A stretch of 64,000 nucleotides of DNA from Saccostrea cucullata (lineage: Eukaryota), in assembly GCF_032062105.1 (NCBI RefSeq), contig NW_026935861.1, positions 62,001-126,000 on the forward strand, in the 5' to 3' direction. The position numbers are program-made. Below, one piece after another: positions 36,001 to 57,000 of the stretch; position 1 is the first letter of the stretch; the number at the start of each line of letters is the position of its first letter.

Positions 36001-39000
36001 AACTTTTACACGAGAAAAACTGCTAAGGCCTTTAGTTTTAACATATCTTTATTAATTAAATATAACAACGTTTATGTGTAAAATTGAAATAACCTTTTTG
36101 AATTCGAAATAAAAGTCACAACACAGCCTGTCATATCTGTTCCATGCTTGATTGATACTCACTGAATATGTTAAATGTAAAAACTATACCATTATTAGCT
36201 ATTGCAGAGAAAAATAAATTAAACCGAGTTATTTTTTTGTTACAGTTGGAACATTTATTCAAATACATATATAAATTTTATGATTCGGTATTTTCAATTA
36301 TGCCAAAGTGATCTTTGTCAAGAATCTCTTGTGAAATAAAAGATTTAAGAAAACTTATAAAAAATACATAAAATGAAAATAATAAATACTTGTAGATATT
36401 CGATTTAAGGTTATCAAAATATATCAAAAGTCACGTCTTTAGATTGGTTTGTAATTATATCACGAGCGGTCACCCTCAACTCTGTCTCCCCAAAAAAGAG
36501 TGTTACCTCAACCTCGGAGCGGGGAGATTCCGGAGTTTTTCTTGAAACAGGTGCCCTGAGTGTGCCCAGCAGTTCACATCCAGGGTCATCGACGAATTTT
36601 GGATCTTTCTCAGTCGAAATATAAACAGCACATTAAAGTATGGTATCGTCATCATGAAGAGGACGGAATATTGAGACTTAGAAAACCCGAGAGGGATCTG
36701 CTGTCCCTTCTGAACGAAGGGGAAAAAGACATCCTTACACCGATTCATTCCGCTGACCTCGAATTTCTTCGATTGTGGATGAATGGTCGGCTTAAATTCT
36801 GGCCATGTTTGAATGCCGTATGTAAACCTTGCCACTCTTCGAGAAATAGAATCTGGCACGTGACCGAAGTACACGGCTCGCTCCCTTGACAACGGCAAGC
36901 CCTGCTTCGGTCGGTACAATAACTTTTTTGTTTGGAAAATTGTCGATAATGGCCTTTTGAACAAGTTTACACTCGGAAAAAACCACCTACCATTAGAATA
37001 TTATGAACATCTCTCACATTTTCTTCTTCAAATAATTCGTCAACATGCTTTACTATGCTTTCAATAGTTTTTAGAAAAAATGTCTTTTTAAAAAAGTTGA
37101 GATCCCACTTTAATTTTCCCACAAAATATGTCACATTGTCTTTTTGAGGTGAAAGTTCTATAGCAGAAGGAAAGTCCTTAACATTTCTGCTTTCTTTGCA
37201 AAATTCAACAAAAGACAAGGGTATTCTTACATGGATTTTCCCCGTCATATCGGGATAACGCTACGTTTTGTTACTTCGAATGTTCGTAAAATATCTAAGT
37301 AATCCTCCAAACTTTGCTTTTTGTATTTTGACATTGTTCCGTCCCCGCTTATGTCTTCCAAAAAGCGAATGAAACGATCGTCGACGGATTTTCCTCCCCA
37401 TGGCCCCCACTTGCTGGACTTATTTCTTCTAAAGTGTGGTCCTCACATTTCTTATGTACAGTAATATCAGCAGTACCACCTAAAAAGGAAACCATTCAAT
37501 TCAACTTAATCTGGGTTCATAAAGTACGTTGTACCTAGAAACTGAATGTTCGTTATAAGATATTCAAGATTTTTACCCCCAAGATCTACCACCATATACT
37601 TTTGTTCAGAGTTCAGTACCCCCAGAGTGGCAGATAATTGTTCCTCGTCGTTTGTGAGATGTTGACAATAAATAGATGCTGCTTCGGGCTCCAGTGCAAT
37701 TATAAGTCTCTTTTCTATTCCTGCCTACATTCAACAGAAAACTCATTCAATTAATGGAATAGACAGTGTAGCAATAATTTTCTTATTAGAAAATATTATT
37801 TTTTCTCATAATTTAGGTGGGAAAAAGAAGGGGGACTTTTTGTTATATTGTATGTACCTTTGTAGTTGCATCTCGCATGAAGCGTTTGGCACGATCACCC
37901 CAATTGGCGGGTACCGTCAAAACATACTCTATGGCGTCTTCTTCCATTCCGGGGTCACTTTTCTTAATTTCTTTATATAAATGATCCTTCAGATAACGTA
38001 TACAATGAGTAAAAACTTTAATGGCCGGTAGTGATTTTCCTGATTCATCTTTGCAAAGAATATTATTATTTACTCCCTGAAAAAAATTATATAGACAATT
38101 GTTCGATTGATTTAATATAATTCAGCTATTACATGTATTTAGAAAAAGCAAAATGAAAGTACGTAGGAATACTATACCGGATCTTTGTGAAGAATCATCT
38201 TAAACCGTAGGAAGAAGTAATACTTGTCCTGCTGTTTCTTGGCTGTTAATTGAGAATATTGGTCTTCTGCATCGTAACCAAAGGCCACAAATTTCTGTCT
38301 GGAGTCCAGTAGTAGAGCAGTGGGGGCCTTGTGTGACACCAGTCCCGCACCCTGCCAAAGGTACGTGTACAGCTTCTTCCATTCTTGTGTGAGAGAAAAC
38401 GCGTATCCAGAGTACGTCGTCCCGAAATCTATGGCCGCCACAAATAGGCTTTGGCTTTTGCTTCGGGTGCTCACATCCATTTTAGTGTCATTCTCGATCT
38501 CTTCCTTTTTCCTACTTTCGTTTTTGCTACACTAAATGTGTGCGTTCACAATTCTCCCATTGGTTGGTATTGGTGGTGTAATTTACCAATGGCAAAACAT
38601 TGGTACCAATGTTTACTATTGGTAACTTTTATTGGTTACCAATTCTGCAGGCCAACCACATCTATGGCAGATTGGTAACCCAGATTTTTTTGTTTATTAG
38701 AGTCACCCTTAAGATGGCTACCTGGACAGTTCCTGGTAGCACGAGTGAAGTTTTCTCACTAGTAATAACACTTCATATGAATTCTACTACAATTTAAGGG
38801 AAAATATTGTTATCTCTACATAGTATTGCAAATTTCAAACAAATGATCACTTGTTTTGGCAAAAGAATATCATCTGAAGACAAGTTTTCATATAAAGTTA
38901 TGTCCATAAAAGTAATTTTATTTTGATTAAGGAGTGCAATAAACAAAATTCTTTTTGAATTTATTGTATCTGGAAAATGGTGAAAACTCAACATTTGCCA

Positions 39001-54000: not shown

Positions 54001-57000
54001 AAGTGTATTACATTTGGCTGTGTATTTTGTAACCGAGTAGAGTATTACATTTGGCTGTGTATTTTGTAACCGATTAACTGCTTAGTCAGTAGAAATGTTC
54101 TCTTTTGTAAGTTGAATAATTGCTTTGAAGTACGGTAATTAATATATTGTTGGATGCTATACAGTGTATTTTTATTTAAACAATTACAATTATTAAAAGA
54201 TAACTGGAGAAATAGGAAAAGGATACAGTTCTTCTGAATACGGAGCAATATTCCTTAGCGGCAACAAAATAAAATAAATTCAATAAAAGGTTCTTTGTAT
54301 TTCTTGTACCTTTTAAAAATCAATAGCAGTTGAAAAATTTATCTACTTTAACTATTTTCCAGTTTTTTTAAATGGATCAATCTATCAAGAGTAAAAGTAA
54401 GAAACTGTTTGTGGCAGCCATTGATTTCGGAACGACGTACTCCGGATATGCCTTCTCCATTTCCCAGAACTGGCGCAAACTCATGGCTTGTCATTGGCAG
54501 GGAGGTGGCCTCATCTCTCACAAGGCCCCGACTGCCCTACTTCTCAAGAAGGCTGGGGGATCAGACCCAGTCTTCGAGGCCTTTGGTTATACAGCTGAGG
54601 ATCGGTACGCCACGTTGACGGCAAAAAAGGAACATAAAGACTACCTTTACTTCCAGCGTTTTAAAATGATCCTACATAAAGACTTTGTATGTAATTGCTT
54701 ATATGTATATAACTTTCTCTCGTTTATTTAATATATTTAATGGCATTGATATTTCATTAAAGTTGCAACATGACAGACAATCCTGTTCTCTACCTCCCTG
54801 CCTATGTGTAGTTTAATGTTATTTTCAGGAAGTCAACAAATCCATAGAATGTTCGGATATTACAGGTGAGAAGTTAGAGGCCACTCAAGTTTTCATGCAT
54901 TGTATAAGGTATCTAAAGGACCACTTAATAGATAAAATCAACGAAAAGTTCGCGGGTACCAGTGATAGAGACATTGAGTACGTGTTGACAGTACCAGCAA
55001 TCTGGGGAGACAAAGCCAAGATGTTCATGAGGGAGGCTGCAGTAAAGGTGAATTGAATTTTGGTTAACCTTGCTATGCATTGAATGTACATGTATTTAGA
55101 AATCAGTAATTTTTTGTTTTTATTTTTATTAATATTTTGGAATTGAATGCAGCCTTTTACATTTAACTGACGCAGCTTTATTAAACTTACAGGCTGGAAT
55201 AGAGAAAGACCACCTCATTATGGCTCTAGAGCCCGAGGCAGCATCTATCTATTGTCAACATTTACAGATAGAAAATCTGAGGGACCCTAACGCCAGTGTC
55301 CTAGGGTCAGTCGACAATGGAACCACATACATGGTTGTTGATTTAGGAGGTGTGTATACACTGTAGATGCAGTCTTTACTGGAATCTTCACAAAGAAATG
55401 ATGATTCTTGATTGTTATAAAGGCATAAAAACTCATACTTTATTTTGTTAGGTGGTACTGCAGATATAACAGTTCACAAGAAATGCATTGACAATACATT
55501 GGAGGAAATCATGCCAGCCAGTGGGGGTCCTTGGGGTGGAAAGTCAGTAGACGACAAATTTATTGACTTCCTTTCAGAGTTAGGAGGCAAAAAAGTTCTG
55601 AAACTGTTGAAGGAAACTAATATGGAGGACTATGTAGACATTTTAAGAACCTTTGAAAGGACAAAACGAGCTATAACGCTTGAAAAGAAAGGAAATGTCT
55701 TTGTCCGTATACCACTTTCCTTCATTAACCTGTGCAAAAAAGAGAATAATCTAGATGATTTTAGCCAAGTAATTAAGAAATCGCCCCACAAAGAAAATGT
55801 GAATTACGGTCCAGGTAAGCTAAAAATGACCGCAGATTTTGTCAGGGGGTTCTTCAAGAAAACATCCGATGGCATCGTAAAACATATTGAGGATTTATTT
55901 AACGAGGAAGCCGTCAGAGATGTCAACCACATTCTCATGGTGGGTGGATTCTCTGAATGTAAGCTAATTCAAAAGGCTATAAAAGATAATTTTCCAGAGA
56001 AAAGAGTCATTATCCCAGAAGAGTCTGGGCTTGCTATTTTGTATGGTGCTGTTTACTTTGGACACATCCCAGATGCTATATCTAGAAGAGTAGCAAGGTT
56101 TACCTACGGGATTCAAACTTGGCCTAAATTTGATTCTAAGACACACAGAAAGGAAAAACAAGTTGATATTAAAGGAGAAAAGCGCTGCAAGGATGTTTTC
56201 TTCAGTTTCGTACGAAAAGGTGAACAAATATCCAACAGCTTTTCTAAATCGCAGATCTTTCGACCTCTTCACACAGAGGACGCCATACTTGAGTGCGGAA
56301 TTTTCGTTTCTACAGAAAAGAATCCGGAATATGTAGATGATGCCAGCTGCCGTCGCCTTGGTACGCTACGAGTTTCTCTCCCAAAAGTTTCGGATGCAAC
56401 TCAGCTAGAGATAGAGGAAACGTTCTACTTCGGCGAGACAGAGCTTCGTGTCGTTGCTCGTGACGTCATCAGCAATTTATCCCAGGACATTGTCGTCGAA
56501 CTATTATAATAAGACAAATATGTTATATTTTAAGTAATTCATAGCTAGTTTTAGCAGTTTAAAGAAGAGGGTACTTAGTGATGAGGATCTCCGTCCCTCT
56601 GTTACGCTTTATATCCTCAACTCCTCTTATACCGACCTATCGATGAAATTTAATAAAACTTTTACAGAATCTTTGTTCCATACATAGTGTCATTGTGCAC
56701 CTCCTATTTTACTTTTTGATCGGGTTTCCTATAGCTAAACATAGACATGTCCATTTTTTCTATAATATTGAAGGAAATCCATCTTGTATAGCCCTGAAAA
56801 AAATTAAATGATACTTTCATTTTAAGTCATCATTTCTTAAGTTCTGTGGTCGATACAATGACCTGGTTAGCAAATACAATTTATCATTGAGTCAAATGCT
56901 GACTGATGTTTTTCATACGAATTGTTAGTCCATTATTTTTACACTGAATTGACGACGGATTTTTCCCGTTATTTCACAATCATGAAAAGGAGCACACGGG

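What the first reader, a model, noticed from the sequence alone, without database searches (positions are those of the whole stretch)
36180..56509. Head-to-head pair of divergent HSPA12 paralogues duplicated as one unit
Seen: order A(-) B(+) C(-) D(+). A~C and B~D are near-identical, while C and D are clearly diverged with the same four-exon layout. Without insertions the two ATGs are only ~0.9 kb apart. The duplicated segment runs 36180-47859 versus 48929-~56130. B was probably truncated by the breakpoint and its neighbour A then decayed, leaving exactly one intact copy of each type. The proteins are compact (~580 aa) and start just before the DFGTT ATP-binding motif. Known: HSPA12 is an atypical Hsp70 expanded in bivalves. 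Inference: a co-regulated two-component unit (heterodimer or sensor/helper, by analogy to paired plant NLRs) kept at 1:1 dosage.
[Added by the scan's program, not by the reader: the finding's places include an assembly gap (unread letters, written N; its length is only estimated) at 53201 to 53346. Whether the letters on both sides are continuous or in frame is not known: test that first.]
Basis: partly seen in the sequence, partly recalled or inferred. Interest (0 to 1): 0.65.

Follow-up and report, generated by a model that had tools for sequence, protein, structure and literature searches.

The report
Duplicated oyster HSPA12 gene pair
Two back-to-back oyster stress-protein genes (HSPA12 type) were copied together as one block and the extra copy of each later died, an ordinary case of gene-family turnover that gives no direct sign the two proteins work as a team.

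Summary
The window matches a Saccostrea cucullata scaffold and carries four HSPA12-like loci in the order A(-) B(+) C(-) D(+). C and D are intact four-exon genes identical to the annotated proteins P0001 (577 aa) and P0004 (582 aa). Segment 36180-47858 is a tandem copy of 48930-56128, about 91% identical. With later transposon insertions removed, the C-D start codons lie about 0.92 kb apart. The N gap (53201-53346) sits inside a 2.2-kb transposon in the C-D spacer, not in coding sequence, and that element's matching ends flank the gap.

A and B are true pseudogenes. They lost constraint late and to a similar degree.

C and D are each other's closest paralogues (neighbour-joining bootstrap 198 of 200). 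No D-type orthologue was found, and neither protein is degenerate. The heterodimer, sensor/helper and dosage ideas remain untested speculation.

The best reading is birth-and-death turnover in the known bivalve HSPA12 expansion. The dead pair's spacer is broken by a MITE and a truncated Ty3/gypsy-like fragment. Interest is low to moderate.

The parts
36414..38480 (-). A: pseudogene copy of C-type HSPA12 (four exons; given as one part because it is broken)
   Evidence: tblastn. Alignment to C: exons 1-3 and all splice sites are intact. Exon 4 has 5 indels (three 1-nt deletions, one 1-nt insertion, one 4-nt insertion; 2 of the 5 lie in homopolymer runs) and 1 stop codon in the reference frame. 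Polarised replacement changes: 20 on A against 4 on C.
38542..39229 (.). MITE-like insertion (28-nt inverted ends) in the A-B spacer, 61 nt upstream of A's ATG
   Evidence: the C-D copy has the empty site
39679..39831 (.). 37-nt x 4.1 tandem array in the ancestral spacer (A-B copy)
   Evidence: the counterpart is at 53927-54076
39832..45326 (+). Virus-like stretch: truncated Ty3/gypsy-like LTR-retrotransposon fragment inserted in the A-B spacer
   Evidence: Absent from the C-D copy, where about 60 nt of host sequence stands in its place; no target duplication. No LTR pair. Pfam domains. Relatives carry integrase domains that are missing here.
41028..42284 (+). gag-like ORF of the retroelement (418 aa, open)
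   Evidence: A CX2CX4HX4C knuckle is visible in the translation. No Pfam hit.
42293..44957 (+). pol region of the retroelement (protease, reverse transcriptase, RNase H), broken
   Evidence: Pfam: gag-asp_proteas 21.3 bits (below its cut-off of 28.2), RVT_1 65.6 bits, RT_RNaseH 109.2 bits. The region is split into three ORFs, which means 1 in-frame stop and at least 1 frameshift. Integrase is absent.
45544..47858 (+). B: truncated pseudogene copy of D-type HSPA12 (given as one part)
   Evidence: The exon 1 splice donor is lost. There is one 4-nt deletion and 2 stop codons in the reference frame. A 577-nt insertion with a 160-nt tandem repeat lies in intron 1. The last 381 nt of the coding sequence are missing. 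Polarised replacement changes: 22 on B against 0 on D.
47859..48929 (.). Junction between the two copies: 28 nt, a MITE (47887-48474, 45-nt inverted ends, second copy at 4727-5322, 91%), then 455 nt with no match in the window
49173..51229 (-). C: intact HSPA12-like gene, four coding exons, 577 aa, equal to P0001
   Evidence: Pfam HSP70 41.7 bits
51230..51335 (.). C-proximal part of the ancestral spacer, with a TATA-like run about 90 nt upstream of C's ATG
   Evidence: read by eye; no transcription start data
51336..53552 (.). Non-autonomous TIR transposon (50-nt inverted ends, 9-nt target duplication) in the C-D spacer; holds the N gap 53201-53346
   Evidence: no Pfam hit for its two longest ORFs
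53553..54371 (.). D-proximal part of the ancestral spacer, including the 37-nt x 4.1 array 53927-54076 and a pyrimidine tract plus AG just before D's ATG
   Evidence: the spacer is more conserved between copies than introns and flank
54372..56509 (+). D: intact HSPA12-like gene, four coding exons, 582 aa, equal to P0004
   Evidence: Pfam HSP70 37.2 bits; AlphaFold2 model pLDDT 90; Foldseek best matches are lid-less DnaK/BiP

Best explanation
This is a small birth-and-death block within the bivalve HSPA12 (atypical Hsp70) expansion.

Step 1 (inferred from the tree): a local inverted duplication of one ancestral gene produced a head-to-head pair, C-type and D-type. The pair is now 62% identical in protein and was originally separated by about 0.9 kb of upstream DNA.

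Step 2 (shown): a tandem segmental duplication copied the whole pair. This happened about dS 0.18 ago and gave A-B and C-D.

Step 3 (shown statistically): all four genes stayed under purifying selection for roughly two thirds to five sixths of the time since then.

Step 4 (lesions shown, causal order inferred): the upstream pair lost constraint late, and both members did so to about the same degree. Its spacer was broken by a MITE 61 nt upstream of A's ATG and by a 5.5-kb truncated Ty3/gypsy-like fragment about 220 nt upstream of B's ATG. B lacks its C-terminal all-beta domain and a splice donor. A has five frameshifting indels. The simplest cause of the joint loss is damage to the shared upstream region, or plain redundancy, rather than selection for a 1:1 ratio.

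C and D themselves encode ordinary family members. Each has an actin-like ATPase domain followed by an Hsp70 substrate-binding-beta-like domain without a helical lid, and the ATP-binding motifs are intact.
For: - Colinear duplicated blocks and boundaries.
- Exact four-exon maps of C and D onto annotated proteins.
- Lesion counts in A and B.
- dN/dS: A/C 0.168 (dS 0.185, dN 0.031, 574 codons) and B/D 0.178 (dS 0.180, dN 0.032, 454 codons). Bootstrap maxima were 0.30 and 0.39 in 1000 resamples.
- Replacement changes fall on the dead copies: 20 vs 4 and 22 vs 0, with 16 and 11 left ambiguous.
- dS is not lower than intron and flank divergence, so exon-limited gene conversion does not explain the low ratio.
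- Post-duplication insertions are each shown by an empty site in the other copy.
- The ancestral spacer is more conserved between copies than introns and flank: 754 of 824 against 1040 of 1200, Fisher p 0.0008.
- The C+D clade has support of 198 of 200 (Kimura-type distances) and 198-199 of 200 (gamma distances).
- Fold: pLDDT 90, pTM 0.87, residues 1 to about 435 alpha/beta and about 440-582 all-beta. The best PDB matches are lid-less DnaK/BiP at E about 1e-25.
- Literature: tandem duplication is reported as the driver of HSPA12 expansion (PMC11268181, passages). HSP70-12 genes occur as close pairs 5-10 kb apart, often hemizygous and attributed to TE-mediated duplication (bioRxiv 10.1101/2020.09.15.298695, passages).
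Against: - Raw identities do not separate D's affinities clearly: D-C is 62% and D-P0009 is 63%. The C+D clade rests on distance trees only and no likelihood tree was run, so long-branch attraction is not fully excluded.
- The dN/dS argument assumes that synonymous change is split evenly between the copies.
- The ambiguous class in the polarisation is large (16 of 40 and 11 of 33).
- It cannot be decided whether B lost its 3' end at the duplication, and then worked for a time as an ATPase-domain-only protein, or by a later deletion. The 455-nt junction filler is unexplained under both.
- No transcript, transcription start or co-expression data were available, so 'shared promoter' is inferred.
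- The near-equal excess of replacement changes in A and B is also what a dosage-coupled pair would show.
Confidence: 0.7

Rival explanations
1. One reading: C-type and D-type form an obligate, co-regulated two-component unit (a heterodimer or a sensor/helper pair) whose 1:1 dosage is maintained by selection. That would explain why the pair is copied and lost as a unit.
For: - The whole pair was duplicated together.
- Both extra copies stayed constrained, so the ratio was 2:2.
- Both then lost constraint to a similar degree: dN 0.031 and 0.032, dN/dS 0.17 and 0.18.
- The ancestral spacer is more conserved than introns.
- Hsp70-family heterodimers do exist: Hsp110:Hsc70 entry 3c7n and the RAC entry 5mb9 appear among the fold matches.
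Against: - This is a single locus.
- One hit to a shared upstream region, or simple redundancy, explains the joint loss equally well.
- There is no asymmetry between the partners. Both keep the ATP-binding motifs and 137-140 of 141 conserved columns, and they have the same architecture and length.
- No D-type orthologue was found. The best non-self hit to D's last exon is C at 60%, among 298 hits from 1699 candidates.
- C-type relatives P0002 and P0003 (69% to C) have no D-type counterpart in the same database.
- The intact pair tolerates a 2.2-kb transposon splitting its spacer.
- No canonical heat-shock element lies in the spacers: 30 matches in the window against 30.4 expected, and none in the spacers.
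Confidence: 0.12
2. One reading: B was non-functional from the moment of duplication because the breakpoint cut it, and A, left without a partner, then decayed.
For: - Homology between B and D stops at 47858/56128 inside exon 4, exactly at the edge of the duplicated block. That is the geometry expected of a tandem duplication with one breakpoint inside the gene.
Against: - The 454 retained codons of B show dN/dS 0.18 against D. At least 96 replacement differences are expected if B had been neutral throughout, and 33.5 are observed (Poisson P 8e-14).
- The same holds for A: at least 125 expected and 41 observed (P 3e-18).
- The junction is not a clean join. It holds a MITE and 455 nt of unrelated sequence.
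Confidence: 0.1
3. Assembly artefact: the A-B copy is a divergent haplotype, or a collapsed or misjoined repeat, placed in tandem by the assembler. The frameshifts in A would then be sequencing errors.
For: - Bivalve genomes are highly heterozygous and HSP70-12 genes are often hemizygous (bioRxiv 10.1101/2020.09.15.298695, passages).
- 2 of the 5 indels in A lie in homopolymer runs.
Against: - The sequence from A through B and the junction into C is continuous. The only N run in the window is 53201-53346.
- The copies differ by dS 0.18 and about 13% in non-coding DNA, and they carry four different transposon insertions.
- 3 of the 5 indels, including a 4-nt insertion, are not in homopolymers. 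A also has a stop codon and an excess of replacement changes, which indel errors cannot produce.
Confidence: 0.05

Closest known systems
Tandemly expanded HSPA12 (HSP70-12) genes of bivalves (for example 89 HSPA12 among 113 HSP70 genes in Magallana gigas, PMC11268181; close HSP70-12 pairs 5-10 kb apart in Scapharca broughtonii, bioRxiv 10.1101/2020.09.15.298695)
   Same: Same family: NCBI names the proteins 12A-like and 12B-like and the Pfam HSP70 match is above its cut-off. Same mode of growth by local duplication, with transposons at the boundaries. The paralogues are lineage-specific.
   Different: Here the duplicated unit is a divergent head-to-head pair rather than a single gene, and the extra pair is dead. 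Orientation of neighbours is not discussed in the passages I read, and the word 'orientation' occurs 0 times in PMC11268181. The supplementary tables that may list positions and strands were closed.
Canonical Hsp70/DnaK/BiP chaperones
   Same: The nucleotide-binding domain is followed by a beta-sandwich domain. Foldseek E is about 1e-25 to lid-less DnaK and BiP, and phmmer E is 3e-9 to DnaK.
   Different: Identity is only 15-18%. There is no helical lid. The Pfam match covers only the ATPase part, profile positions about 100-400 of 599. No HSPA12 structure appeared among the 60 PDB sequences listed out of 100 matched.
Bidirectional (head-to-head) gene pairs sharing a promoter (definition in the abstract of PMC2648788: opposite strands, transcription starts no more than 1000 bp apart)
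   Same: The genes are divergent on opposite strands. The ancestral ATG-to-ATG distance is about 0.92 kb, and the spacer is more conserved than introns.
   Different: Transcription starts are unknown. The living pair is now 3.1 kb apart because of a transposon. A pyrimidine tract plus AG just before D's ATG hints at an upstream non-coding exon.
Paired head-to-head plant NLR genes (sensor/helper pairs such as RGA4/RGA5 and RRS1/RPS4; named from memory, not from a call)
   Same: Only the head-to-head arrangement of two diverged paralogues.
   Different: There is no integrated or degenerate partner, no conserved pairing across species could be shown, and there is no evidence of interaction.
Ty3/gypsy (Metaviridae-like) LTR retrotransposons
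   Same: The order is gag with a zinc knuckle, aspartic protease, reverse transcriptase, RNase H. The closest relative is 86% identical and is a 1394-aa polyprotein.
   Different: The copy here has no integrase, no LTR pair and no target duplication, and its pol is interrupted. It is a dead fragment.

Membership tests
Hsp70 superfamily, HSPA12-like subfamily | Hsp70 ATPase domain recognised by the family profile | tested here: met
   Pfam PF00012: P0001 scores 41.7 bits and P0004 37.2 bits against a cut-off of 20.6. Single exons alone do not reach it.
Hsp70 superfamily, HSPA12-like subfamily | Intact nucleotide-binding motifs (phosphate-1 DFGTT, phosphate-2 DLGGGT, adenosine-site GGFS; motif names recalled) | tested here: met
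   The motifs are present in both P0001 and P0004. C deviates at 1 and D at 4 of 141 columns conserved at 90% or more among 77 family members.
Hsp70 superfamily, HSPA12-like subfamily | Two-domain fold: actin-like ATPase domain plus beta-sandwich domain | tested here: met
   AlphaFold2 model of D has pLDDT 90.0 and pTM 0.87. Foldseek matches to DnaK/BiP span about 600 columns with probability 1.00.
Hsp70 superfamily, HSPA12-like subfamily | Orthology or closer kinship to vertebrate HSPA12A/B than to other Hsp70 classes | not tested
   This rests on the names NCBI gives the hits. No vertebrate sequence was compared.
Tandem segmental duplication with pseudogenised copy (birth-and-death) | Two colinear direct copies with defined boundaries | tested here: met
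Tandem segmental duplication with pseudogenised copy (birth-and-death) | Disabling lesions and relaxed constraint in one copy only | tested here: met
   Lesion counts. Polarised changes are 20 vs 4 and 22 vs 0. C and D match annotated proteins exactly.
Bidirectional promoter pair | Divergent orientation on opposite strands | tested here: met
Bidirectional promoter pair | Transcription starts no more than 1 kb apart | tested here: inconclusive
   The ATG-to-ATG distance was about 916 nt ancestrally and is 3142 nt now. Transcription starts are unknown.
Bidirectional promoter pair | Co-expression of the two genes | not testable with these tools
   No expression data are available.
Sensor/helper two-component pair (paired-NLR analogy) | Functional asymmetry: one partner degenerate or carrying an extra domain | tested here: not met
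   The two have the same length, the same exon layout and the same conserved residues.
Sensor/helper two-component pair (paired-NLR analogy) | Both types, and their pairing, conserved in related species | tested here: inconclusive
   No D-type orthologue is present among the hits. The only C-type relatives are the unnamed P0002 and P0003. Genomic context of other bivalves cannot be reached with these tools.
Sensor/helper two-component pair (paired-NLR analogy) | Physical interaction of the two proteins | not testable with these tools
   The structure tool folds single chains only.
Ty3/gypsy LTR retrotransposon | Reverse transcriptase and RNase H in the order PR-RT-RH | tested here: met
   RVT_1 scores 65.6 bits and RT_RNaseH 109.2 bits. 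The protease match is only 21.3 bits, below its cut-off.
Ty3/gypsy LTR retrotransposon | Integrase after RNase H | tested here: not met
   Only about 370 nt follow the RNase H ORF before host homology resumes. The six best relatives, P0146-P0151, all carry PF00665 and PF17921 (domain names recalled).
Ty3/gypsy LTR retrotransposon | Two LTRs and a target-site duplication | tested here: not met
   No long direct repeat lies within 39600-45600. About 60 nt of host sequence is replaced and there is no duplication.

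The most novel reading that the evidence does not exclude
The head-to-head C-type/D-type pair is a true two-gene module, in which two diverged lid-less Hsp70-like ATPases are made from one upstream region and act together. 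On this reading the module can only be gained or lost whole. That would explain why both extra copies were kept under selection together, a truncated one included, and then lost constraint to the same degree.
Probability: 0.12. Interest if true: 0.55.

Novelty: new member of a known kind. Interest (0 to 1): 0.25.

Why it matters
The locus is a clean, datable example of how the very large bivalve HSPA12 family turns over. It shows an inverted duplication, then a block duplication, then a long period of retention, and finally a late loss marked by transposon insertions in the upstream region. It shows that a copy that looks 'born truncated' can still carry the signature of long purifying selection, so gene counts and pseudogene calls in this family should be checked with substitution patterns and not by structure alone. 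If the pair did work as a module, that would give a first functional handle on why this family is so expanded, but nothing here requires it.

Tried and rejected
- Heat-shock elements in the spacers: the pattern GAANNTTCNNGAA with up to 1 mismatch gave 30 matches against 30.4 expected, none in the ancestral spacer parts.
- Rfam scan of the window: 0 matches at gathering scores.
- LTR search in the retroelement: none found.
- Search for the origin of the 455-nt junction filler and of the flanks: no match in the window apart from the MITE.
- Gene conversion as the cause of the low dN/dS: rejected, because dS (0.18) is not below non-coding divergence (about 13% raw) and 200-nt identity profiles show no sharp tracts.
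- Long-branch attraction as the cause of the C+D clade: gamma-corrected distances, and removal of P0002 and P0003, left support at 198-199 of 200. No likelihood method was available.
- Literature: HSPA12 + 'head-to-head' gave 9 papers, none on bivalve gene arrangement. For HSPA12 with 'bidirectional promoter', 'divergently transcribed' or 'inverted duplication', none of the 12 listed papers (of 329 that held at least two of the five search terms) combined them. Saccostrea + HSPA12 gave 5 papers, none on this locus judging by title and abstract.
- The genome-contig collection holds only bacteria and archaea, so it was not used.

Full report
**What is there**

The window matches a Saccostrea cucullata scaffold. 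The last exon of gene C is 99% identical to P0001 ('heat shock 70 kDa protein 12B-like', 577 aa). The last exon of gene D is 100% identical to P0004 ('12A-like', 582 aa). Both proteins come from one 684,516-nt contig (543 hits at E <= 0.001 among 2121 candidates; 298 among 1699).

Searches with window sequence were made exon by exon. I did not search with an exon model joined by me. The full-length comparisons used the database proteins P0001 and P0004. An exact exon map shows that these are encoded by four GT-AG-bounded exons each:
- C(-): 51229-50927, 50827-50609, 50481-50334, 50236-49173.
- D(+): 54372-54686, 54829-55047, 55193-55349, 55452-56509.

Intron phases are the same in both genes. 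tblastn finds HSPA12-like sequence at four places only, in the order A(-) B(+) C(-) D(+). Nothing in the window was taken for human.

**The duplication**

Self-comparison gives four colinear blocks at 89.5-91.7% identity. Together they pair 36180-47858 with 48930-56128. Four stretches lack a counterpart in the other copy, and the three in the spacers face an empty or altered site there:
- A MITE at 38542-39229 in the A-B spacer (28-nt inverted ends).
- A 5.5-kb retroelement fragment at 39832-45326, also in the A-B spacer.
- A 2.2-kb TIR element at 51336-53552 in the C-D spacer (50-nt inverted ends, 9-nt target duplication).
- A 577-nt insertion with a tandem repeat in intron 1 of B.

**The gap**

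The single N run (53201-53346) lies inside the TIR element. It is 1-2 kb from the nearest coding exons, so reading frame is not at stake. The element's two matching ends and its identical target duplication lie on either side of the gap. The host sequence outside them is colinear with the A-B copy. This supports order and orientation across the gap. Its letters were neither filled nor looked up.

**The dead copies**

A keeps its start codon, exons 1-3 and all splice sites. Exon 4 has five indels, of which two lie in homopolymer runs and one is a 4-nt insertion. A also has one stop codon when read in C's frame. The MITE sits 61 nt upstream of its ATG, between a TATA-like run and the ATG.

B has lost the exon 1 splice donor. 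It has one 4-nt deletion and two stop codons. It ends at the block boundary, equivalent to D residue 456.

The AlphaFold2 model of D has pLDDT 90 and pTM 0.87. Residues 1 to about 435 are alpha/beta and residues about 440-582 are all-beta. The best PDB matches are lid-less DnaK and BiP at E about 1e-25. B therefore lacks essentially the whole C-terminal beta domain.

Sequencing error cannot account for A. Three of its indels are outside homopolymers. In addition, A carries 20 derived amino-acid changes against 4 in C (16 ambiguous), and B carries 22 against 0 in D (11 ambiguous).

**Timing**

Nei-Gojobori estimates are as follows.

| Pair | dS | dN | dN/dS | Codons | 95% bootstrap interval |
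|---|---|---|---|---|---|
| A/C | 0.185 | 0.031 | 0.17 | 574 | 0.11-0.25 |
| B/D | 0.180 | 0.032 | 0.18 | 454 | 0.11-0.28 |

No bootstrap value among 1000 resamples exceeded 0.39. A copy that had been neutral since birth would push the pairwise ratio to at least 0.5. The deficit of replacement changes has Poisson P 3e-18 (A/C) and 8e-14 (B/D).

dS is not below intron and flank divergence (86.4-87.0% identity), so gene conversion limited to exons is not the cause.

With a functional-branch ratio between 0 and 0.1, simple arithmetic on these numbers (my inference) puts the unconstrained period at roughly 16-34% of the time since duplication. The value is about the same for A and B.

Either B worked for a long time as an ATPase-domain-only protein, or its 3' end was lost later. 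The junction does not decide between these. It holds 28 nt, a MITE with a second copy at 4727-5322, and 455 nt with no match in the window.

**Origin of the pair**

I built distance trees from 80 full-length proteins, those of 560-620 aa among the 145 held at that point. A 27-taxon subset was bootstrapped.
- C, D and the two unnamed proteins P0002 and P0003 form a clade in 198 of 200 replicates.
- P0002 and P0003 sit on the C side in 200 of 200 replicates.
- Gamma-corrected distances give 198-199 of 200.
- Removing P0002 and P0003 leaves C+D at 198 of 200.

The sister group holds genes of S. echinata, Ostrea edulis, Crassostrea/Magallana and other S. cucullata genes, including two (P0010, P0012) from the same scaffold but outside this window.

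Raw identity is less clear-cut: D-C is 62% and D-P0009 is 63%. No likelihood tree could be run. The most economical reading is a local inverted duplication of one gene. No D-type orthologue appears in the database, since the best non-self hit to D's last exon is C at 60%.

**Function of the pair**

Both proteins are regular family members.
- The Pfam HSP70 match is above its cut-off in both.
- The ATP-binding motifs are intact.
- C deviates at 1 and D at 4 of 141 columns conserved at 90% or more, against a family median of 3 and a range of 0-34 among 77 proteins.

There is no sign of the asymmetry that a sensor/helper pair would show.

The ancestral spacer is more conserved between the two copies than introns and flank: 91.5% against 86.7%, Fisher p 0.0008. 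It holds a 37-nt x 4 tandem array in both copies. This fits a functional upstream region. It contains no canonical heat-shock element. The living pair also tolerates a 2.2-kb transposon 106 nt upstream of C's ATG.

A pyrimidine tract plus AG directly before D's ATG suggests an upstream non-coding exon, so the true transcription starts are unknown. The joint late loss of A and B fits either damage to their shared upstream region by the two insertions or loss of a redundant block. A dosage-coupled module would look the same, and one locus cannot tell these apart.

**The virus-like stretch (description only)**

The stretch at 39832-45326 (+) has an open gag-like ORF with a CX2CX4HX4C knuckle, followed by a pol region.
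- The protease signal is weak (21.3 bits, below its cut-off).
- Reverse transcriptase (65.6 bits) and RNase H (109 bits) are clear.
- Pol is interrupted by one in-frame stop and at least one frameshift.
- There is no integrase, no LTR pair and no target duplication, and about 60 nt of host spacer were replaced.

Its closest relative in the protein database is 86% identical and 1394 aa long. Like the next five hits, that relative carries integrase domains. The stretch is a dead, 3'-truncated Ty3/gypsy-like fragment.

**Comparison with what is known**

Tandem duplication as the driver of HSPA12 expansion is established. In M. gigas, 89 of 113 HSP70 genes are HSPA12 and 68 of the 113 HSP70 genes are tandemly duplicated (PMC11268181, abstract and passages). 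Close pairs of HSP70-12 genes, often hemizygous and attributed to TE-mediated duplication, are described in bioRxiv 10.1101/2020.09.15.298695 (passages).

I found no paper that treats head-to-head HSPA12 pairs in bivalves. The supplementary tables that might list strands were closed. No bivalve genome other than this window could be reached, so synteny and expression remain unchecked.

**Verdict**

The locus is an ordinary, well-resolved case of birth-and-death evolution in a known expanded family, with one instructive point: both extra copies, including the truncated one, were long constrained and lost constraint late and together.

Noticed in passing
39679-39831 and 53927-54076: A 37-nt unit repeated about 4.1 times lies in the ancestral spacer of both copies, about 300 nt upstream of the D-type ATG. 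In the A-B copy the retroelement fragment starts exactly at the end of this array.
   Followed up: partly
51336-53552: A non-autonomous transposon with 50-nt inverted ends rich in CGGAA repeats and a 9-nt target duplication. It has no recognisable transposase and holds the window's only N run.
   Followed up: partly
47887-48474 and 4727-5322: Two copies (91%) of a MITE about 590 nt long with roughly 45-nt inverted ends. One sits at the junction between the duplicated blocks.
   Followed up: partly
266-478, 10174-10673, 14097-14633, 22281-22502, 26594-26859, 28519-29072, 56817-57168, 58501-58988, 59527-59687 and others: An abundant interspersed repeat family of about 200-500 nt, at 70-90% identity, in both orientations across the window. 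It was not classified.
   Followed up: no
45899-46475: B's intron 1 holds a 577-nt insertion that includes a 160-nt unit repeated 2.7 times. D lacks it.
   Followed up: partly
29372-29933, 32688-33819, 61333-61749, 11909-12301: Further tandem or satellite-like arrays seen in the self-comparison.
   Followed up: no
4074-4448 (+), 15028-15396 (-), 19912-20346 (+): Exon-sized ORFs with an LDL-receptor class B repeat (46.9 bits) and fasciclin domains (28.3 and 59.4 bits). The neighbours of the HSPA12 block are therefore unrelated genes.
   Followed up: no
54350-54371: A pyrimidine tract followed by AG lies 9 nt before D's ATG. It looks like a splice acceptor and suggests an upstream non-coding exon, so the transcription start may lie well inside the spacer.
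   Followed up: no
41028-41500: The gag-like ORF of the retroelement begins with a long N-terminal extension containing hydrophobic stretches. It has no Pfam match.
   Followed up: no
48475-48929: 455 nt at the junction between the two copies match nothing else in the window. Their origin is unexplained under both scenarios for B's truncation.
   Followed up: partly
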